A stretch of 64,000 bases of DNA from Lacisediminihabitans sp. (GTDB lineage Bacteria > Actinomycetota > Actinomycetes > Actinomycetales > Microbacteriaceae): assembly GCA_046597035.1 (NCBI GenBank), contig JBKJLH010000191.1:5790-69789 (forward strand), read 5' to 3'. A program made the position numbers and the translations under genes. The notes beneath the pieces were generated by a model, which was not told where the DNA came from, did not search any database, and worked only from the letters and a program-made list of their open reading frames with translations. Below are positions 21,033 through 28,156 of the stretch, in pieces. Each line of letters begins with the position of its first letter. Within the stretch, counting starts at the first letter, position 1.

Positions 21033-22148
21033 GTGAGCGCCACGCGCCCGGACTCACCCTCCGCTCCTCCCTCAGCGTCAGACCTGCGACGCTGGCGCCA
21101 GTATCTCGCCGACGAGAAGGCCGAGGCCGCCGTCTACCGTGATCTCGCCAGCCGTCGCGCCGGGGAGGAGCGAGCGATCCTGCTCGCGCTCGCCGAGGCT
21201 GAGGGCCGGCACGAACAGCACTGGTTCGACCTGCTCGGCGACAACATCGGTAAGCCGCGCCGCGGCGACTTCCGCACCCGATCGCTCGGTCTTCTTGCCC
21301 GACGCTTCGGCTCGGTCTTCGTGCTCGCGCTCGCGCAGCGGGCCGAAGCGCGTTCTCCCTACGAGTCGGATTCGGATGCCACGGCAGCCATGGCCGCCGA
21401 CGAGCGGATCCATGCCGAGGTGGTGCGCGGTCTCGCTGAACGGGGACGCATCCGGCTTGCCGGCACCTTCCGCGCGGCCGTCTTCGGGGCCAACGACGGC
21501 CTCGTCTCGAACCTCGCCCTGGTGATCGGCATCAGTGCGAGCGGGGTGTCCCAGCAGGTCGTGCTCGTCACCGGTCTCGCGGGCCTTCTCGCGGGTGCGC
21601 TGTCGATGGGGGCGGGGGAGTACGTGTCGGTGCGGTCCCAGCGGGAGCTGCTCGAGGCATCCACCCCCGACCCGGAGAGCAACAGCGCACTCCCGAACCT
21701 CGACGTCGATGCCAACGAGTTGGCACTGGTCTACCGGGCACGCGGCATGACGCCCGAGGCGGCGGTGGCCCGGGCATCCGCCATGCTCGACACGCGTACC
21801 CGGCACGATCAGGGTCTCAACGATCACAGCCTGGCTGAGCAGAACGGCCCGGTCGACACACACGAAGCGGTCGGTACCGGATTCGGTGCCGCGATCTCGA
21901 GCTTCTGCTTCTTCGCGTCTGGCGCGGCTATCCCGGTGCTGCCGTACCTGTTGGGATTGCAGGGAATCGCGGCCCTCGTGGTCGCGGCAGTGCTTGTCGG
22001 GCTTGCCCTGCTGGGCACCGGCGCCGTCGTCGGGCTGCTCTCCGGCGGTCCGCCCTTGCGCCGTGCACTGCGCCAGCTGGGCATCGGCTACGGCGCTGCA
22101 AGCATCACCTACCTGCTCGGCCTACTCTTGGGCACGATGACCGGCTAG
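21033..22148 (+). CDS. Ferritin/rubrerythrin-like domain fused to a VIT1/CCC1 metal transporter
   Basis: E..EAAVY...EAEGRH and DERIH helices, then AAVFGANDGLVSN, SMGAGEYVSV. Confidence 0.88.
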   Translation: MSATRPDSPSAPPSASDLRRWRQYLADEKAEAAVYRDLASRRAGEERAILLALAEAEGRHEQHWFDLLGDNIGKPRRGDFRTRSLGLLARRFGSVFVLALAQRAEARSPYESDSDATAAMAADERIHAEVVRGLAERGRIRLAGTFRAAVFGANDGLVSNLALVIGISASGVSQQVVLVTGLAGLLAGALSMGAGEYVSVRSQRELLEASTPDPESNSALPNLDVDANELALVYRARGMTPEAAVARASAMLDTRTRHDQGLNDHSLAEQNGPVDTHEAVGTGFGAAISSFCFFASGAAIPVLPYLLGLQGIAALVVAAVLVGLALLGTGAVVGLLSGGPPLRRALRQLGIGYGAASITYLLGLLLGTMTG

Positions 22149-22444
22149 TGCCGAAGTCGAACGCCCGCGATGATCGTTCCTCGGCGGCGCCTGTGTGCCG
22201 CCTCGAACCGGCACAGACCTGTCGCATGGCACCAGCGTCTCGGGTCGAACAACCTACGGCTTCAGGATTGGCACCCGGCTCAGCGCGAGGACCGCAAGCC
22301 CGAAGAGTGGGCGCAGTAGCCCCAAAAGAGGTGTTTCACGGCGTTCGCCTCTCCGAGGCGTCGCGGTCCGGGCCCGCTGGAGATGGTGCGTATCACGTCG
22401 AAACGGTCTGGGAGCACCGACACCACGCCGTCGATCCGCTGGGG

Positions 22445-22765
22445 TTAAGACTTGTCCCCGCTCTCGCCGCGCGGCTCGGATTCATCGCTCAACTGGAGAC
22501 CCGAGGGTTTTCCTGCTGCCAGCAGAAGGGACTCGACCCAGGCGCGATTAATTCCGGCCGGGCGCGAGCCGCTGAAGAAGAAATGGATGCGGATTCCGTT
22601 GTCGATCCAGATGGCATGACGCCCGCTGCCACGCTCCATCGGTTGGGTCCACGACAGAAAGAAGTTCTCGCCCCGGCGCAACTTCGTGCTGATGACGACC
22701 TGGAGGTGGGTGAGGAGCCTGTCGTCGAGTTCGAATTCGCTGCCGCCGTAGTACAGAACGCCCAC
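22445..22765 (-). CDS. Small conserved Microbacteriaceae hypothetical protein (DUF7882-like, from memory)
   Basis: DDRLLTHLQVVISTKLRRGENFFLSW...INRAWVESL pattern. Confidence 0.7.
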   Translation of the reverse strand: MGVLYYGGSEFELDDRLLTHLQVVISTKLRRGENFFLSWTQPMERGSGRHAIWIDNGIRIHFFFSGSRPAGINRAWVESLLLAAGKPSGLQLSDESEPRGESGDKS

Positions 22766-22882
22766 GGAATCCCCCTTGAGGTCTCTGGCAACAGGCGAGT
22801 TCCTGCTTGTTGCAGAATAGTCGCCGGGGGGACTGTCGAGGCACGGGCGTACCCTTGACCAGCCGCCGATCGCGGCACCCTC

Positions 22883-23176
22883 GTGTCCCAAGTTAGGAAA
22901 CCAGTGATAGTGAACCGGCTCACCGTCGACGGGCGCGACTATTTCCTACCCGATCCCGTGACGGCGCTGAAGGCACGCATTCTCGAAGCGATCAAGAGCG
23001 GCGGCGGCTACGTGACCATCCCACCGCTCAAGTCGGGAACCGGTATCGAGATACTCTTCTCGCCCGGGATGCCCGTGTTGTGGACGCAGCTCGATGTCGG
23101 TGGAGACACGGCGGGCGAATCACAGCAGGGCTCCGGCGATGCCGCGGTCGGTGAGGATCTCGAGAGCACGCTCTAG
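22883..23176 (+). CDS. Small hypothetical protein; start uncertain (possibly 22904)
   Basis: ORF with plausible globular composition, divergent from the previous gene. Confidence 0.55.
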   Translation: MSQVRKPVIVNRLTVDGRDYFLPDPVTALKARILEAIKSGGGYVTIPPLKSGTGIEILFSPGMPVLWTQLDVGGDTAGESQQGSGDAAVGEDLESTL

Positions 23177-23982
23177 GAAGCCGAGCCGGGCGCCCATTCG
23201 GAGGCCCGATTCGCCGAGACCAGCTCTTCGAGAAGTTCGCCCGATGTGGGATGGGCAAAGAGAAACCCCTGCCCACGGTCGAAGCGAAGTTCACGCGCGA
23301 GCGCCAGGTGTTCGACAGTCTCGATGCCCTCGGCGACGACTCGGATATTCCGTTCGTGAACGAGCGAGACGATCGCCGCGATGAGCGCACGGGTCGAGTG
23401 GGTGCCGGACTGGATCAGAGTGCGATCGAACTTCAGCTCCGTTGCCCCCAGGCGAAGAAGCCGTTCGATAGAGGAATGCCCGGTGCCGAAATCATCGATC
23501 GAGATTCCGATACCCCTCTGACGTAACTGATCGAGGTGCTCTCGGACGGGCCCAATCCGACGGATCGCCTGGGACTCCGTGATCTCGAGGGTGAGGCATC
23601 CGGCGGGCACCGACATCCGATCGAGAGTCGACACGACCCGTTCGAAGAACTGTGGGGTGGAAAGTTGGGCCGCAGAGACATTGATCGATATCTCGAGGGG
23701 ATGACCCCGGCGCTGCCATTCGGCAGCACACCGGCAGCCCTCTTCGATCATGAGCTCGCCGATGAGGTGAATCAGTCCGGTTCGTTCCGCGAGGGGGATG
23801 AACTCTCCAGGACCGATGATGCCTCGGTGCGGATGCCTCCAGCGACTCAGCGTCTCGACGGCGACGATCTGTCCGGTCGCTACATCGATCTGCGGCTGGA
23901 AGTACGCCACGATCTCACCCCGCGCAAGCGCGTCCGCGAGGTCCGTCGCGCCCAGGGGAAACGGGACCGCTTGACTATTCAC
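23173..23982 (-). CDS. Stand-alone EAL domain protein (c-di-GMP phosphodiesterase, ETL variant)
   Basis: YFQP, VETLSRW, SINVS, EITES, IDDFGTG, EGIET, QGFLF. Confidence 0.88.
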   Translation of the reverse strand: MNSQAVPFPLGATDLADALARGEIVAYFQPQIDVATGQIVAVETLSRWRHPHRGIIGPGEFIPLAERTGLIHLIGELMIEEGCRCAAEWQRRGHPLEISINVSAAQLSTPQFFERVVSTLDRMSVPAGCLTLEITESQAIRRIGPVREHLDQLRQRGIGISIDDFGTGHSSIERLLRLGATELKFDRTLIQSGTHSTRALIAAIVSLVHERNIRVVAEGIETVEHLALARELRFDRGQGFLFAHPTSGELLEELVSANRASEWAPGSAS

Positions 23983-24134
23983 GCTGATCCCTTCCTTCGG
24001 GGCGACCGGTATCAGGCAAGGCTCACTGGTACATGTCGGGTTTGTCAAAGCCCCCTATTCCCCCCTCCGGTAAGCTATGCTCGCACGCCTTTCAGCGTTC
24101 CCAGCTTTCCGCGATCCACGACCCGAGGCCGCTG

Positions 24135-24953
24135 ATGAACCGAACCGTCAAGAGCGTCGGCGATCCCGTGATCCGTAATAATGTCCGTGTGTCGGGAAAT
24201 CCGACCGGTCGTCCCATCGTGTTCGCTCACGGCTTCGGCTGCAGCCAAGAGGTATGGCGCCACATGGTTCCGCTTTTCGAACGTGACTATCGGGTCGTGC
24301 TGTTCGATCACGTGGGAGCCGGGGGTTCCGATCTCACCGCCTACGACCGGGGCAAGTACGATTCGCTCGACGGCTATGCGCAGGACGTACTCGAGATCGT
24401 CGAGGAACTCGACCTGAGAGATGCGGTCTTCGTCGGACATTCGGTAGGCGCCATCGTCGGTGTTTTAGCAGCCAATCGCGACGGATCGCGCTTTGGCGCC
24501 CTGGTGCTCGTCGGACCCTCCGCCCGGTATGTCGACGAGGATGACTATCACGGGGGGTTCACCCGGGCCGATATCGATTCACTGCTCGATACCCTCGACG
24601 CCAACTACCTCGGGTGGTCCGCTTCCATAGCCCCGCTCATGATGGGCAACAGCGATCGCCCGGAGCTGGGGCAAGAGCTCACGGAGAGCTTCTGCAGTAC
24701 CGATCCGATCATCGCGAGACATTTCGCCCGGGTGACGTTTCTCTCCGACAACCGCCGTGACCTCTCCCGGGTGTCGATCCCCACTCTGGTGCTGCAGAGC
24801 ACCGAGGACGTGATCGCCCCCGAGCGAGTCGGCCACTACGTGCACGAGCAGATCACCGGGAGTGAACTCGTCATGCTCACCTCGAGTGGTCACTGTCCCA
24901 ACCTGTCGGATCCGGCCCAACTATCGCGTCGAATCCTCGACTTCTTCGCATGA
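24135..24953 (+). CDS. RsbQ-like alpha/beta hydrolase (KAI2/D14 relative)
   Basis: FAHGFGCSQEVW, GHSVG, RYVDEDDYHGGF, GHCPNLS. Confidence 0.88.
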   Translation: MNRTVKSVGDPVIRNNVRVSGNPTGRPIVFAHGFGCSQEVWRHMVPLFERDYRVVLFDHVGAGGSDLTAYDRGKYDSLDGYAQDVLEIVEELDLRDAVFVGHSVGAIVGVLAANRDGSRFGALVLVGPSARYVDEDDYHGGFTRADIDSLLDTLDANYLGWSASIAPLMMGNSDRPELGQELTESFCSTDPIIARHFARVTFLSDNRRDLSRVSIPTLVLQSTEDVIAPERVGHYVHEQITGSELVMLTSSGHCPNLSDPAQLSRRILDFFA

Positions 24954-26389
24954 CTGCGGACGGGCAGCTGTCAGGCCACGACCCGCTACCCGTCACGGAG
25001 TCGATTGAGGAGCTCTACAACGGTGCTCCCTGTGGGATCCTTTCGACAACTCCCGATGGTGAGATCATCGCCGTCAACGACACCATGGCGTCGTGGGTGG
25101 GAGTGCCGCCTGCCGCGTTGGTCGGGCGTACGTTTCGCCAGTTGCTTTCATCCGGTAGCCAGCTGTTTTACGAGACGCGCTATCTGCCGGTGATGCGACT
25201 ATCCGGACACATCCACGAGGTTGCCCTCACCATGCTGGGCCCCGGTGACACGGAGCTTCCCGTACTGGTGAATTCCCTCGTGGTGCCGGATGCCACGGGC
25301 TCGCCTCGCCTCATTCGAACTGCGGTCTTCGACTCGACATCCCGCCAGGACTACGAGCGGCAGCTGTTGTCGGCACAACGATCGGCCGAAATCTCAGAGT
25401 CTCGCGTTCGCATCATCCAGGAGGCCTCCACAGCCTTCGATTCGACCACGACGGAAGAAGCGCTGGCTGAGACGTTCGTCTCGGTGGCGCGGGACGCCTT
25501 CTCCGCCCCTGCAGTCGCGATACTGCTGCGGGCGAAATCGGGCACACTCCGGCTCGTTGCCGGCTCGCAGTCGGTCAACATCGCGGCATCAACGGATGCT
25601 CGTCCGGAGTTGGATGCGCTGGCCACCTCTCGCACGGTCACGCTCACCACTCTCGATGCCGCGCTGGCCCGGTATCCGTCGACAGGGGAGGCGATGTCGA
25701 TCGCGCGAGTCGAGGCACTGTGGGCTGTGCCCCTTTTCGCGGACGGTGGGGCAGTGGGTGTGCTTGTCTGCTATTTCGGCAGGGAGCGCACTATGGATGA
25801 ATCCGCCGCTCTGCTGATGGAGACCCTTGCGTGGCAAGCGATGCTGGTCTTGGGCCGGATTCGCCTGCAAAACGAGTTGGAACACCGTGCGCTCCACGAC
25901 CCGCTCACCGGGCTGGCCAACCGTCGTCTTCTCGAGGAGTACCTCACCCCTACCCTGGCGGCCGCGCACCGCCATGGCACGCCGGTCGCCATTATCTTTC
26001 TCGACCTCGATGGCTTCAAAGCGGTCAACGATGCCCTGGGGCACGGAATGGGTGACGGCATTCTGCGTGCGGTATCCGGCCATCTCCTCGGGGTCGTCCG
26101 TCAGGACGATATCGTCGGCCGGCTCGGGGGTGACGAATTTCTCATCATCTGCGCGGATACGGATGTGACAGCCGCCGAAGCGATCGCCGAGCGAGTGCGG
26201 ATCGCGGTGCGAACGCCATACGGCCCGGCGTCGACGACCCGCCCGATCACCGCGAGTATCGGGGTCGCAATCTATCGCCCCCGTCCCGGGTATCGAGCGA
26301 CGGGTGCCGATCTCGTCGCTGTTGCCGACTCCGCGATGTACGAGTCGAAGAATTCCGGTAAGGACCGAGTAACCGTCGTGCAGGCCTGA
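24950..26389 (+). CDS. PAS-GAF-GGDEF diguanylate cyclase
   Basis: RsbP-like PAS (SQLFYETRYLP), HDPLTGLANR, DLDGFKAVND, RQDD I-site, GGDEF. Confidence 0.9.
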   Translation: MTADGQLSGHDPLPVTESIEELYNGAPCGILSTTPDGEIIAVNDTMASWVGVPPAALVGRTFRQLLSSGSQLFYETRYLPVMRLSGHIHEVALTMLGPGDTELPVLVNSLVVPDATGSPRLIRTAVFDSTSRQDYERQLLSAQRSAEISESRVRIIQEASTAFDSTTTEEALAETFVSVARDAFSAPAVAILLRAKSGTLRLVAGSQSVNIAASTDARPELDALATSRTVTLTTLDAALARYPSTGEAMSIARVEALWAVPLFADGGAVGVLVCYFGRERTMDESAALLMETLAWQAMLVLGRIRLQNELEHRALHDPLTGLANRRLLEEYLTPTLAAAHRHGTPVAIIFLDLDGFKAVNDALGHGMGDGILRAVSGHLLGVVRQDDIVGRLGGDEFLIICADTDVTAAEAIAERVRIAVRTPYGPASTTRPITASIGVAIYRPRPGYRATGADLVAVADSAMYESKNSGKDRVTVVQA

Positions 26390-26590: not shown

Positions 26591-27202
26591 ATGGCGATCT
26601 CACCGGGAGTCGACAGTGACTCGACGTCCGTTCTGCGAACGGCAACCAATGGCATGCTCATCAGGATCGCGGCCGGCGACCATGCGGCATTCCGCGAGCT
26701 GTACGAGTGCATGGCCCCCCGCGTCCACGGCTTGATAAGACGCACAGTGGTGGATGACGGACAGTCCCAGGAAGTGACGCAGGACGTGTTCCTGGAGGTG
26801 TGGCGGTCGGCGTCGCGTTTCGATGCCGCCCGTGGCTCCGCTGTGAGCTGGATCATGATGAAAGCGCACAGCAGCGCGGTCGACCGCGTTCGGGCATCCC
26901 AGGCCAGCCGCGATCGTGACCTGCGCATCGGGGTACGCGACAGAGACGTGCACTTCGATCTGGTCTCTGAAGCAGGTGAGCTCTCTGTCGAATCGGCGCG
27001 GGTCACCCGTGCGATGACCCGATTGACCGCCATCCAGCGCGACGCGATCTCAATGACCTACTTCGAGGGGCTGACCGGTCCCGAGTTGGCGGCTCGCCTC
27101 GAGATACCGGTAGGCACTCTGAAGTCGCGCCTGCGGGAAGCCCTCATCCGCCTTCGGGACGAACTCGGAATCGGACAGAGCCTCGAAGGGTCCCTCGTCT
27201 GA
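26591..27202 (+). CDS. ECF sigma factor, SigK-like paralog without an adjacent anti-sigma
   Basis: EVTQDVFLEVW, AVDRVRASQ, IPVGTLKSRLR; GGAGG RBS. Confidence 0.85.
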   Translation: MAISPGVDSDSTSVLRTATNGMLIRIAAGDHAAFRELYECMAPRVHGLIRRTVVDDGQSQEVTQDVFLEVWRSASRFDAARGSAVSWIMMKAHSSAVDRVRASQASRDRDLRIGVRDRDVHFDLVSEAGELSVESARVTRAMTRLTAIQRDAISMTYFEGLTGPELAARLEIPVGTLKSRLREALIRLRDELGIGQSLEGSLV

Positions 27203-27340
27203 ATGGTGAGATGGGGCAGTCTGGGGGGGACACCAGCGCTCGAAACCACCGACGCTCCGATACGCGTGTTTCGCCTCCGATCTCGACGGTGGTGTGCGCC
27301 CCCATGACACCGCATCACCAGACAACGACGAAGGAGAACG

Positions 27341-28156
27341 ATGTCACCGAAGAAGCATCTGCAGGCCCGTCGCACGCTGGCGAAGAGTGCGTACGAAACC
27401 GAACTCGAACGTCTTCAGATAGATCTCGTACAGATGCAGCAGTGGGTAGTGCAGTCGGGTGCCCGCGTCCTCGTCATCTTCGAAGGTCGCGATGCAGCGG
27501 GCAAAGGCGGCTCGATCAAACGAGTGATGCAATACCTGAATCCCCGGTCTGCACGAGTCGTCGCACTTCCCGCGCCGAGCGAACGCGAGCGAAGCCAATG
27601 GTACTTCCAGAGATATATCGAACGTCTGCCGGCGGCTGGCGAGATCGTGCTCATGGACCGGTCTTGGTATAACCGTGCCGGAGTCGAGCGCGTGCTCGGA
27701 TATTGCACCGAGGAAGAATATGACCGTTTCCTGAGGCAAGTGCCCATCCTCGAGCGGATGCTCGTCGAAGATGGCATCATCCTGGTCAAGTACTGGTTCT
27801 CGGTCTCAGACGACGAACAGCAGAAGCGATTCAAATCGCGTCTGAAGGATCCGATGAGACGGTGGAAGCTCTCGGAAACCGACCTCAAATCCATCGTTGA
27901 ATGGGAGGGCTACTCCAGGGCAAAGGACGCGATGTTTACGGTGACGGATATTCCCGAGGCACCATGGTGGACGATCGAGAGCGACGACAAGAAGTCCGCA
28001 CGAATCAATGCGATAAGCCACCTACTGTCTCAAGTTCCGTGGGAGAAGGTAGCGCCAAAACCAATAAAACTCCCCGATCGTCCGCTGGCCCACGACTATG
28101 AGCGACCCGCACGCGAGCTGCACAAGTATGTACCTGATCAGGCATCCACCCTGTGA
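27341..28156 (+). CDS. ppk2: Polyphosphate kinase 2
   Basis: FEGRDAAGKGG, DRSWYNRAGVERVLG, RRWKLS. Confidence 0.93.
   Translation: MSPKKHLQARRTLAKSAYETELERLQIDLVQMQQWVVQSGARVLVIFEGRDAAGKGGSIKRVMQYLNPRSARVVALPAPSERERSQWYFQRYIERLPAAGEIVLMDRSWYNRAGVERVLGYCTEEEYDRFLRQVPILERMLVEDGIILVKYWFSVSDDEQQKRFKSRLKDPMRRWKLSETDLKSIVEWEGYSRAKDAMFTVTDIPEAPWWTIESDDKKSARINAISHLLSQVPWEKVAPKPIKLPDRPLAHDYERPARELHKYVPDQASTL

What the first reader, a model, noticed from the sequence alone, without database searches (positions are those of the whole stretch)
23173..26389. RsbQ-PAS sensing module wired to c-di-GMP synthesis, with a divergent stand-alone EAL
Seen: an RsbQ-like hydrolase (GHSVG/D/H triad) is ATGA-coupled to a protein with an RsbP-like PAS, a GAF and an intact GGDEF with an RxxD I-site. 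An EAL gene is divergent from them. Established: Bacillus RsbQ-RsbP(PAS) is a bipartite sensor found with varied output domains, and RsbQ is the bacterial relative of the plant KAI2/D14 receptors. Inference: a self-contained on/off c-di-GMP switch responding to an unknown small molecule, possibly a butenolide or plant-derived compound.
Basis: partly seen in the sequence, partly recalled or inferred. Interest (0 to 1): 0.65.

Follow-up and report, generated by a model that had tools for sequence, protein, structure and literature searches.

The report
RsbQ-gated sole c-di-GMP cassette
A soil/freshwater actinobacterium (Microbacteriaceae) makes its c-di-GMP signal with a single enzyme that sits under a hydrolase-type small-molecule sensor of a kind catalogued in 2011; what is new is that this locus carries the genome's only recognisable enzymes for making and breaking the signal, and that the breaking enzyme has an unnamed small partner gene.

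Summary
The locus holds a stand-alone EAL gene (23173-23982, minus strand), an RsbQ-type hydrolase (24135-24953) and a PAS-GAF-GGDEF cyclase (24950-26389). The last two overlap by ATGA. All catalytic residues are intact.

The core (RsbQ plus an RsbP-type PAS driving a diguanylate cyclase) is the bipartite module published by Nadezhdin, Brody and Price in 2011. This scan has met the same module before in other genomes. The butenolide idea is already published for Bacillus RsbQ.

Four points are new here:
- These are the only GGDEF and EAL genes found in this genome and in a near-closed (two-contig) relative. No HD-GYP or PilZ was found, and the own genome has no BldD or RsiG motif.
- The cassette is present or absent as a unit across the genus.
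- In all 79 scorable Microbacteriaceae loci a GAF domain lies between PAS and GGDEF.
- The EAL is almost always convergently paired with an uncharacterised 90-residue protein (22904-23176). That protein was found only in Microbacteriaceae and only in genomes that have an EAL (26 of 26).

The ligand, RsbQ control of the cyclase and the small protein's role are all inferred, not shown. Verdict: a new variant of a known kind, of moderate interest.

The parts
22445..22765 (-). DUF7882 paralogue, flanking member of the cassette. The 236-codon plus-strand ORF 22148-22858 over it is spurious.
   Evidence: Pfam PF25355, E 1.2e-32. Codon-position GC favours the minus frame. A DUF7882 copy flanks the small-protein/EAL pair in most of the 80 loci. 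The family itself is multi-copy in 30 of 32 genus genomes, so it is not specific to the cassette.
22904..23176 (+). Uncharacterised 90-aa protein ('unk97'). It has a conserved 65-residue core and an acidic tail ending in a hydrophobic residue. It is convergent with the EAL, and the two 3' ends overlap by 4 nt.
   Evidence: No Pfam family. About 1053 clusters in the large protein database, all named 'hypothetical'. AF2 core pLDDT about 90, with no PDB fold match. Same 12-of-32 pattern in the genus as the stand-alone EAL. Paired convergently with the EAL in 58 of 62 EAL-bearing loci. Found in 26 of 151 family genomes, all 26 with an EAL. Found in 0 of 387 genomes outside the family.
23173..23982 (-). 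Stand-alone EAL c-di-GMP phosphodiesterase, predicted active.
   Evidence: Pfam EAL, E 1.5e-70. E43, R47, N101, E133, E136, D163, D164, K184, D186, E218, E221 and Q238 are present, and each is kept in 57-60 of the 57-60 orthologues aligned at that position. It is the only EAL hit in the genome.
23983..24134 (.). Divergent intergenic region between the EAL and the RsbQ gene. It presumably holds both promoters.
   Evidence: The spacer is about 100-320 bp in 52 loci with this arrangement. No family-wide conserved motif was found, and the consensus promoter scan found nothing here.
24135..24953 (+). RsbQ-type alpha/beta hydrolase (sensor/partner protein).
   Evidence: 1wom RsbQ, E 3.9e-85. Ser103, Asp225 and His253 are kept in 81 of 81 sequences. 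The B. subtilis pocket residues F27, Y125, L144 and F197 are all matched in the alignment.
24950..26389 (+). PAS-GAF-GGDEF diguanylate cyclase, the only GGDEF protein of the genome.
   Evidence: AF2 model, pLDDT 91.
25004..25333 (+). RsbP-type PAS domain (residues 19-128), N-terminal-most domain.
   Evidence: 46% identical to the PAS of a PAS-PPM protein that itself follows an abhydrolase gene with a 4-nt overlap. Class residues are matched at offset +18 without gaps.
25337..25441 (+). 35-residue helical linker between PAS and GAF (residues 130-164).
   Evidence: AF2 secondary structure, H130-164.
25448..25846 (+). GAF domain (residues 167-299), weakly conserved, ligand unknown.
   Evidence: Pfam GAF, 2.3e-09. 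Present in 79 of 79 orthologous loci.
25889..26368 (+). GGDEF catalytic domain. GGDEF motif at 26126-26140; RxxD I-site at 26099-26110. It is preceded by a 32-residue helix (residues 284-315).
   Evidence: Pfam, 6.1e-43. GGDEF kept in 78 of 78, R384 in 79 of 79, D387 in 78 of 79. H284-315 in the model.

Best explanation
This is a Microbacteriaceae-specific version of the RsbQ-PAS bipartite sensing module, wired to c-di-GMP.

Proposed mechanism:
- The RsbQ-type hydrolase binds, and probably hydrolyses, an unidentified small ligand.
- RsbQ contacts the F-alpha face of the N-terminal RsbP-type PAS domain of the cyclase.
- The change passes through a helix, a GAF domain and a second helix to the GGDEF dimer, and alters c-di-GMP synthesis.
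- The RxxD I-site limits output by product inhibition.
- The divergently transcribed stand-alone EAL hydrolyses c-di-GMP.

No other GGDEF, EAL or HD-GYP gene is detectable in the genome. The whole c-di-GMP pool would therefore be set by this one input.

A 90-residue protein always found beside the EAL is most likely a partner of the phosphodiesterase: a regulator, an adaptor or a c-di-GMP reader.

Shown here: gene identities, intact catalytic residues, conserved order and overlap, uniqueness in the genome, and co-inheritance.

Inferred: the RsbQ-PAS contact, the direction of regulation, the ligand, and the small protein's role.
For: Module identity:
- RsbQ identity, E 3.9e-85, with triad and pocket residues kept.
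- RsbP class residues are matched at a constant offset: C10/C28, L13/L31, L48/L66, Q53/Q71, F55/F73, P62/P80, E72/E90, P86/P104. This includes F55, the residue needed for RsbQ binding in B. subtilis.
- The nearest PAS relatives among 1.84 billion representatives carry PPM, histidine kinase or GGDEF outputs, the three published classes.

Conservation of the arrangement:
- RsbQ followed by PAS-GAF-GGDEF in 79 of 79 loci; a 4-nt overlap in 58 of 72.
- EAL within 7 kb in 62 of 80 loci, in three different arrangements.

Uniqueness in the genome:
- One GGDEF and one EAL in G000 (97% complete) and in the near-closed (two-contig) G012.
- No HD-GYP or PilZ in G000, G012 or G002.

Genus pattern:
- 16 of 32 species have neither a GGDEF nor an EAL hit.
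- 12 carry the stand-alone EAL with the small protein. Ten of those 12 carry RsbQ, and 11 keep the full-length cyclase (G047 has only a remnant).

Structure: the AF2 model shows PAS, helix, GAF, helix, GGDEF at pLDDT 91.
Against: - No experiment on any RsbQ-linked cyclase was found in the searched literature.
- One class residue that gave a null phenotype in RsbP (Y59) is an invariant Arg here, in 79 of 79 sequences.
- One congener (G006) keeps the cyclase and the EAL but has no RsbQ between them, and none was detected elsewhere in its genome. RsbQ may therefore be dispensable.
- The interposed GAF domain could be the real or an additional sensor.
- Three of 22 RsbQ-positive genomes have no EAL.
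- G000 is a 209-contig assembly, so absence of further GGDEF or EAL genes rests partly on its relatives.
Confidence: 0.7

Rival explanations
1. The EAL and the small protein form an independent two-gene module that merely often lies near the RsbQ-cyclase operon. It serves whatever cyclase the cell has, and is not a dedicated 'off' arm of this sensor.
For: - The small protein and the EAL stay together when the block is moved downstream of the cyclase or inverted (9 and 1 loci).
- The pair lies elsewhere in the genome in 3 of 5 genomes checked.
- Eleven of 26 genomes with the small protein have no RsbQ hit at E<=1e-60; in several of these the pair lies next to a different GGDEF gene.
Against: - In 52 of 80 loci the EAL is directly divergent from RsbQ.
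- In the genus, 10 of the 12 genomes with a stand-alone EAL carry RsbQ and 11 keep the full-length cyclase.
- In this genome there is no other cyclase for the EAL to oppose.
Confidence: 0.25
2. The GAF domain, or PAS on its own, is the real sensor. RsbQ is an accessory or vestigial partner that is not needed for regulation.
For: - GAF is present in 79 of 79 family members, unlike the published PAS-coiled-coil-output design.
- G006 has lost RsbQ but keeps an intact cyclase next to the EAL.
Against: - The RsbQ triad is invariant in 81 of 81 sequences.
- RsbQ is the best conserved gene of the cassette, at 64-84% identity against 38-66% for the cyclase.
- The stop/start overlap is conserved.
- The GAF domain is poorly conserved, with few invariant residues.
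Confidence: 0.12
3. The hydrolase is an ordinary metabolic esterase or lactonase that happens to be co-transcribed, with no signalling role.
For: Generic abhydrolase Pfam hits, and weak matches to PcaD-type enol-lactonases.
Against: - Identity to RsbQ is far above that to any metabolic hydrolase: E 3.9e-85 against about 1e-18 for the next class.
- Adjacency to the RsbP-class PAS is invariant.
- No catabolic genes lie in the neighbourhood.
Confidence: 0.04

Closest known systems
RsbQ-PAS bipartite sensing module with diguanylate cyclase output (Nadezhdin, Brody and Price 2011, PMC3183031; for example Psychromonas ingrahamii A1SVT3)
   Same: An RsbQ homologue sits immediately upstream of a protein whose N-terminal-most domain is an RsbP-type PAS. 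The output is GGDEF. The class is described in both Gram-positive and Gram-negative lineages.
   Different: - A GAF domain lies between PAS and GGDEF here. The paper lists only extra PAS domains or a fused EAL.
- The phosphodiesterase is a separate, divergently transcribed gene with its own small partner gene.
- The module is the only c-di-GMP cyclase of the cell.
- Position Y59 is Arg.
Bacillus subtilis RsbQ-RsbP energy-stress pathway (RsbQ structure 1WOM)
   Same: The hydrolase aligns over its full length with 1WOM (E 3.9e-85) and keeps the triad and the named pocket residues. The PAS class residues include the RsbQ-contact residue F55. The two genes are adjacent on the same strand, as in rsbQP (here their stop and start overlap).
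   Different: The output is c-di-GMP synthesis, not PPM phosphatase and sigma-B. No sigma-B partner-switching genes lie at the locus.
Plant KAI2 / D14 butenolide receptors
   Same: Same hydrolase family (E about 1e-54) and the same Ser-His-Asp chemistry. B. subtilis RsbQ hydrolyses GR24-type butenolides with a His adduct (bioRxiv 10.1101/2023.12.05.570042).
   Different: The downstream partner is a PAS-domain enzyme, not an F-box protein. The pocket is of the small RsbQ type. The ligand is unknown, and in Bacillus butenolides act as inhibitors.
Moorella thermoacetica RsbT with an RsbU-N-GAF-GGDEF cyclase (Quin et al. 2012, as cited in PMC12143880)
   Same: A separate partner protein controls a GAF-containing diguanylate cyclase through an N-terminal domain and helical linkers.
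   Different: The partner there is a stressosome kinase-like protein, not a hydrolase, and the N-terminal domain is not a PAS.
DUF7882 putative CryoRhodopsin transducers (PMC12227055)
   Same: They compare with the small EAL-partner gene. Both are small soluble Microbacteriaceae proteins with a beta-rich core and a disordered C-terminal tail. A true DUF7882 copy lies next door.
   Different: There is no sequence relationship (hhalign probability 0.7%). Structural similarity is weak (TM about 0.5). No rhodopsin lies at this locus.

Membership tests
RsbQ-PAS bipartite sensing module (Nadezhdin et al. 2011) | RsbQ homologue with an intact Ser-Asp-His triad | tested here: met
   1wom, E 3.9e-85. 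S103, D225 and H253 are kept in 81 of 81 sequences.
RsbQ-PAS bipartite sensing module (Nadezhdin et al. 2011) | The PAS-containing gene lies immediately downstream of the RsbQ gene on the same strand | tested here: met
   ATGA overlap at 24950-24953. Same order in 79 of 79 loci; 4-nt overlap in 58 of 72.
RsbQ-PAS bipartite sensing module (Nadezhdin et al. 2011) | [quoted passage not shown] | tested here: met
   PAS at residues 19-128, ahead of GAF and GGDEF.
RsbQ-PAS bipartite sensing module (Nadezhdin et al. 2011) | The PAS sequence belongs to the RsbP-PAS class (the paper required significant similarity to RsbP residues 1-109) | tested here: met
   - The B. subtilis RsbP sequence itself could not be fetched, so proxies were used.
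- 46-47% identity (E 2.9e-34) to PAS-PPM proteins, one of which was shown to follow an abhydrolase gene with a 4-nt overlap.
- The top relatives carry PPM, HisKA or GGDEF outputs.
RsbQ-PAS bipartite sensing module (Nadezhdin et al. 2011) | Nine class residues plus P62 (C10, L13, L48, Q53, F55, C56, Y59, E72, P86) | tested here: met
   - Eight of ten are identical at offset +18 with no gaps.
- C56 is Tyr, which the paper's consensus allows.
- Y59 is Arg, in 79 of 79 family members, so this residue is not met.
- Sources.
RsbQ-PAS bipartite sensing module (Nadezhdin et al. 2011) | No DIT motif at the C-terminal end of the PAS domain | tested here: inconclusive
   The sequence reads D128-S129-T130. 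The family consensus is D-A-T, as is the consensus of the wider class. This is not the canonical DIT, but the Asp and Thr are kept.
RsbQ-PAS bipartite sensing module (Nadezhdin et al. 2011) | A helical (coiled-coil) linker after the PAS domain | tested here: met
   AF2 helix 130-164. It leads to GAF, not straight to the output domain.
RsbQ-PAS bipartite sensing module (Nadezhdin et al. 2011) | Physical RsbQ-PAS interaction, and dependence of output on RsbQ catalysis | not testable with these tools
   Needs pull-down or two-hybrid assays and enzyme assays.
Active GGDEF diguanylate cyclase | GG(D/E)EF active site, the conserved DxD-FK-ND active-site block, and an RxxD I-site five residues upstream | tested here: met
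   GGDEF at 393-397; D352, D354, K357, N360 and D361 present; RQDD at 384-387. All are conserved in the family.
Active EAL phosphodiesterase | Catalytic and metal-binding residues: E of ExL, R, N, ExxE, DD, K, E, Q | tested here: met
   E43 (in ETL), R47, N101, E133, E136, D163, D164, K184, E218, E221 and Q238 are all present and conserved in the orthologues.
KAI2/D14-type butenolide receptor | Binding and hydrolysis of a butenolide ligand with a covalent His adduct | not testable with these tools
   Only homology (E about 1e-54) and conserved RsbQ pocket residues were seen. The biochemistry is published for B. subtilis RsbQ only.
DUF7882 (PF25355), considered for the small EAL-partner protein | Match to the family profile | tested here: not met
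   No Pfam hit even at E 1. hhalign probability 0.7%.
PilZ, BldD or RsiG c-di-GMP effectors, considered for the small protein and the genome | PilZ profile; BldD RGD-x8-RQDD motif; RsiG ExxxSxxRxxxQxxxD motif | tested here: not met
   No PilZ in G000, G012 or G002. No credible motif hit in the six-frame ORFs of the own genome. The BldD and RsiG tests are motif-only.

The most novel reading that the evidence does not exclude
The cassette may be a complete minimal c-di-GMP pathway: sensor (RsbQ-PAS), writer (GGDEF), eraser (EAL) and a new kind of reader or adaptor. It would either bind c-di-GMP or dock through its acidic, hydrophobic-ended tail to control the phosphodiesterase. This would be the missing effector in genomes that lack PilZ and, in the genome tested, BldD and RsiG motifs.
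Probability: 0.25. Interest if true: 0.7.

Novelty: new variant of a known kind. Interest (0 to 1): 0.45.

Why it matters
What RsbQ senses, and how it passes the signal to PAS, has been open since the early 2000s. No RsbQ-linked cyclase study turned up in the literature searched here.

Species such as this one, and its cultured near-closed (two-contig) relative Glaciihabitans sp. INWT7, have one cyclase and one phosphodiesterase and no competing c-di-GMP enzymes. Total cellular c-di-GMP would therefore report directly on RsbQ signalling. That is an unusually clean system for ligand screens and for mutants.

The survey also shows that c-di-GMP signalling is sparse and patchy in Microbacteriaceae. 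About half of the species sampled have no GGDEF gene.

Finally, it gives a concrete candidate for an unknown effector or regulator, in a lineage where no known c-di-GMP receptor was found.

Tried and rejected
- **B. subtilis RsbP sequence.** I could not fetch it for a direct PAS alignment. The single genome-contig scan returned only Microbacteriaceae, and PDB holds no RsbP PAS. I used the residue numbering printed in the 2011 paper and PAS-PPM proxies instead.
- **Shared operator in the EAL/RsbQ spacer.** A k-mer search across 53 spacers gave only clade-limited -35/-10-like words, with nothing family-wide. The consensus promoter/terminator scan found nothing useful in the locus.
- **Fold of the small protein.** There was no PDB match (best E 0.76). 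AlphaFold DB and ESM Atlas returned only unnamed small actinobacterial proteins, plus weak DUF7882 and DUF3107 hits.
- **Small protein as a divergent DUF7882.** Rejected.
- **DUF7882 as a cassette-specific gene.** Rejected, because it occurs in 30 of 32 genus genomes.
- **The 236-codon plus-strand ORF at 22148-22858.** Rejected as spurious from codon-position GC.
- **The ORF 27211-27672 as an anti-sigma factor.** Rejected on the same ground.
- **The ECF sigma factor downstream (26591-27202).** It is conserved next to the cyclase only in the nearest relatives, so it is not part of the cassette.
- **c-di-GMP-I riboswitch.** The search of the genome was negative, but its control genomes were silent too, so this result carries no weight.


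Full report
**1. What is there**

Translation and Pfam confirm three genes.

- **EAL.** The EAL gene lies on the minus strand. Its longest ORF starts at TTG 24048. A GTG at 23982, preceded by GGAAGG, fits the orthologues and gives 269 aa.
- **Hydrolase.** Its longest ORF starts at 24033. ATG 24135 (272 aa) is the start supported by the alignments.
- **Overlap.** The hydrolase TGA overlaps the ATG of the 479-aa cyclase as ATGA at 24950-24953.
- **Cyclase.** Pfam finds PAS_9, GAF and GGDEF. An AlphaFold2 model built on 35 orthologues (pLDDT 91) shows PAS 19-128, a 35-residue helix 130-164, GAF, a 32-residue helix 284-315 and GGDEF.

**2. Identity of the parts**

- **Hydrolase.** It matches B. 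subtilis RsbQ (1wom) at E 3.9e-85, then a marine homologue, then plant KAI2 and D14 at about 1e-54. Ordinary esterases follow only at about 1e-18.
  - In that alignment the B. subtilis pocket residues F27, Y125, L144 and F197 are all matched. These are the residues named by Melville et al. (bioRxiv 10.1101/2023.12.05.570042).
  - The triad is invariant in 81 orthologues.
- **PAS domain.** It is 46-47% identical to the PAS of PAS-PPM (SpoIIE) proteins. One of these sits 4 nt overlapped behind an abhydrolase gene, the RsbQ-RsbP arrangement.
  - I used the residue numbers printed in Nadezhdin et al. (PMC3183031). The class residues line up at a constant offset of +18 with no gaps.
  - C10, L13, L48, Q53, F55, P62, E72 and P86 are identical. 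C56 is Tyr. Y59 is Arg, which is invariant in this subfamily.
  - F55 is the residue whose Ala substitution broke RsbQ binding in Bacillus.
  - I scored the PAS against 1.84 billion cluster representatives. The best 150 carry PPM, histidine kinase or GGDEF outputs, the three published classes. Both PAS-GAF-GGDEF and PAS-GAF-PPM forms occur.
- **Cyclase active site.** The GGDEF motif, the DxD-FK-ND active-site block and the RxxD I-site are intact and conserved.
- **EAL active site.** It has every residue expected of an active enzyme (ETL for EAL, R, N, ExxE, DD, K, E-G-x-E, Q). These are conserved in about 60 orthologues.

**3. What is already known**

The RsbQ-PAS module with a diguanylate cyclase output was described bioinformatically in 2011, with 45 examples in both Gram lineages. 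It is cited as such in eLife 2025. That paper also proposes a model in which RsbQ docks on the PAS domains and linkers of an RsbP dimer.

Butenolide perception by RsbQ is published for B. subtilis. There the compounds are hydrolysed, modify the catalytic His and inhibit signalling, and the native ligand remains unknown.

I found no experimental work on any RsbQ-linked cyclase and nothing on c-di-GMP in Microbacteriaceae. Earlier notes of this scan record the same module in other genomes and reached the same verdict.

**4. What is particular here**

*(a) Uniqueness in the genome*

- The window's genome (3.37 Mb, 97% complete) has one GGDEF hit and one EAL hit, and they are these two genes.
- The same holds for congeners G012 (two contigs, 100% complete) and G002.
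- None of the three genomes has HD-GYP or PilZ.
- The own genome shows no BldD-type or RsiG-type c-di-GMP binding motif in its six-frame ORFs.

*(b) Presence and absence in the genus*

| Feature, 32 species of the GTDB genus | Genomes |
|---|---|
| GGDEF hit | 16 |
| EAL hit | 15 |
| Neither (many 95-100% complete) | 16 |
| Stand-alone EAL | 12 |
| RsbQ, all among those 12 | 10 |
| Small neighbouring protein, the same 12 | 12 |

- The nearest named hits place the genus at Lacisediminihabitans, including Glaciihabitans sp. INWT7.
- Two of the 12 lack RsbQ. In G006 the cyclase abuts the EAL directly. In G047 only a GGDEF remnant remains.

*(c) Survey of the family by locus*

A scan of species-representative genomes with an RsbQ profile gave 80 loci, almost all Microbacteriaceae.

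- All 79 loci with downstream sequence have PAS-GAF-GGDEF.
- 62 loci have an EAL within 7 kb: 52 directly divergent, 9 downstream of the cyclase (Agromyces-type) and 1 inverted upstream.

*(d) The small partner gene*

- **Coordinates.** 22904-23176, plus strand. The Atlas and the orthologues place the start at GTG 22904.
- **Pairing with the EAL.** It is convergent with the EAL, with a 4-nt 3' overlap in this window.
  - The pair is kept in 58 of the 62 EAL-bearing loci, through all three rearrangements. Three of the other four are cut by contig ends.
  - In 3 of 5 genomes whose RsbQ locus lacks an EAL, the pair lies elsewhere in the genome.
- **Sample of 151 high-quality Microbacteriaceae species**:

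| Feature | Genomes of 151 |
|---|---|
| GGDEF | 81 |
| EAL | 61 |
| RsbQ (E<=1e-60) | 22 |
| Small protein | 26 |

  - All 26 genomes with the small protein have an EAL, against 35 of the other 125.
  - In 21 of the 26 it lies convergent within about 330 bp of a stand-alone EAL.
  - In 15 of the 26 RsbQ is also present.
- **Range.** It was not found in 387 genomes of other families of the class.
- **Annotation.** The large protein database holds about 1053 clusters of it, all 'hypothetical' and without a Pfam family.
- **Structure.** The model (core pLDDT about 90) is beta-beta-alpha-beta-beta-beta with a disordered tail. It has no PDB counterpart.
- **Tail.** It is strongly acidic, with a mean of 6.8 Asp/Glu against 0.4 Lys/Arg in the last 22 residues. 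It ends in a hydrophobic residue in 56 of 59 sequences, usually after an aromatic one. This looks like a docking peptide.
- **DUF7882.** The neighbouring minus-strand gene is a DUF7882. Pfam created that family for putative CryoRhodopsin transducers, which are predicted to form rings that capture a partner's C-terminus. DUF7882 is multi-copy and is present in c-di-GMP-free congeners. It is not related by sequence to the small protein.

**5. Mechanism**

The best-supported reading is the published model transferred to this output.

- RsbQ, loaded or modified by a small ligand, contacts the PAS F-alpha surface and linker.
- This shifts the dimer geometry. The shift passes through two long helices and the GAF domain to the GGDEF pair.
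- The I-site caps output, and the EAL removes the signal.

Gene order, the stop/start overlap (58 of 72 loci), conservation of the catalytic and contact residues, and co-inheritance are shown. The contact, the sign of regulation and the ligand are inferred.

The data weaken the idea that the EAL is a dedicated arm of this sensor. Its tightest partner is the small protein. Some RsbQ-cyclase genomes have no EAL at all (G520, G531, G561 and the Naasia genome G051).

**6. Caveats**

- Related genomes are not independent samples.
- The absences rest on profile searches of draft assemblies.
- The BldD and RsiG tests are motif-only.
- The riboswitch search had a silent control.
- The B. subtilis RsbP sequence itself was not available, so the residue mapping relies on the paper's numbering and on proxies.

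**7. Verdict**

The finding is real and correctly read. Its core is a known kind of system.

The Microbacteriaceae version is a distinct variant in three respects: the GAF insertion, the separate EAL with a new small partner, and its status as the cell's only c-di-GMP turnover machinery. It offers a clean experimental handle on RsbQ signalling and a candidate new c-di-GMP-linked protein family.

Noticed in passing
window 22904-23176 (+): An uncharacterised 90-aa protein family found only in Microbacteriaceae. It is almost always convergent with a stand-alone EAL gene, and it has an acidic C-terminal tail ending in an aromatic-x-hydrophobic motif. It has no Pfam family and no PDB fold match. 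It is a candidate partner of the phosphodiesterase or a c-di-GMP reader.
   Followed up: yes
window 22148-22891: The long plus-strand ORF (236 codons) is an artefact of high GC content. The real gene is a DUF7882 on the minus strand (about 22445-22765). Pfam created that family for putative CryoRhodopsin transducers. A DUF7882 copy flanks the small-protein/EAL pair in most related loci.
   Followed up: partly
genus and family genome samples: c-di-GMP signalling is sparse in Microbacteriaceae. Seventy of 151 high-quality species have no GGDEF hit and 90 have no EAL hit. Half of the window's own genus has neither, including genomes that are 99-100% complete.
   Followed up: partly
L021 (G006:C88) and G047:C212: Natural deletion variants. 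G006 has the PAS-GAF-GGDEF gene only 243 bp from the EAL, with no RsbQ gene between them and none found elsewhere in the genome. G047 keeps the EAL and the small protein beside a 41-residue GGDEF remnant.
   Followed up: partly
window 26591-27202 (+): An ECF-type sigma factor lies about 200 bp downstream of the cyclase. It is conserved at that position (81% identity) only in the two nearest relatives, so it is probably not part of the cassette. The ORF 27211-27672 after it has non-coding codon-position GC, and PPK2 (27341-28156) is the real gene there.
   Followed up: partly
G012 (contig of 3,328,990 bases): The near-closed (two-contig) congener carrying the same one-cyclase, one-EAL cassette matches records named Glaciihabitans sp. 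INWT7. That is the cultured strain used for the CryoRhodopsin-transducer predictions, so it could serve as an experimental host.
   Followed up: no
cyclase residue 77 (window 25178-25180): The position equivalent to RsbP Y59 gave a null phenotype when mutated in Bacillus. Here it is an invariant Arg in all 79 Microbacteriaceae cyclases, while the wider RsbQ-partnered PAS class mostly has His. This may be a lineage-specific change at the RsbQ-facing helix.
   Followed up: no
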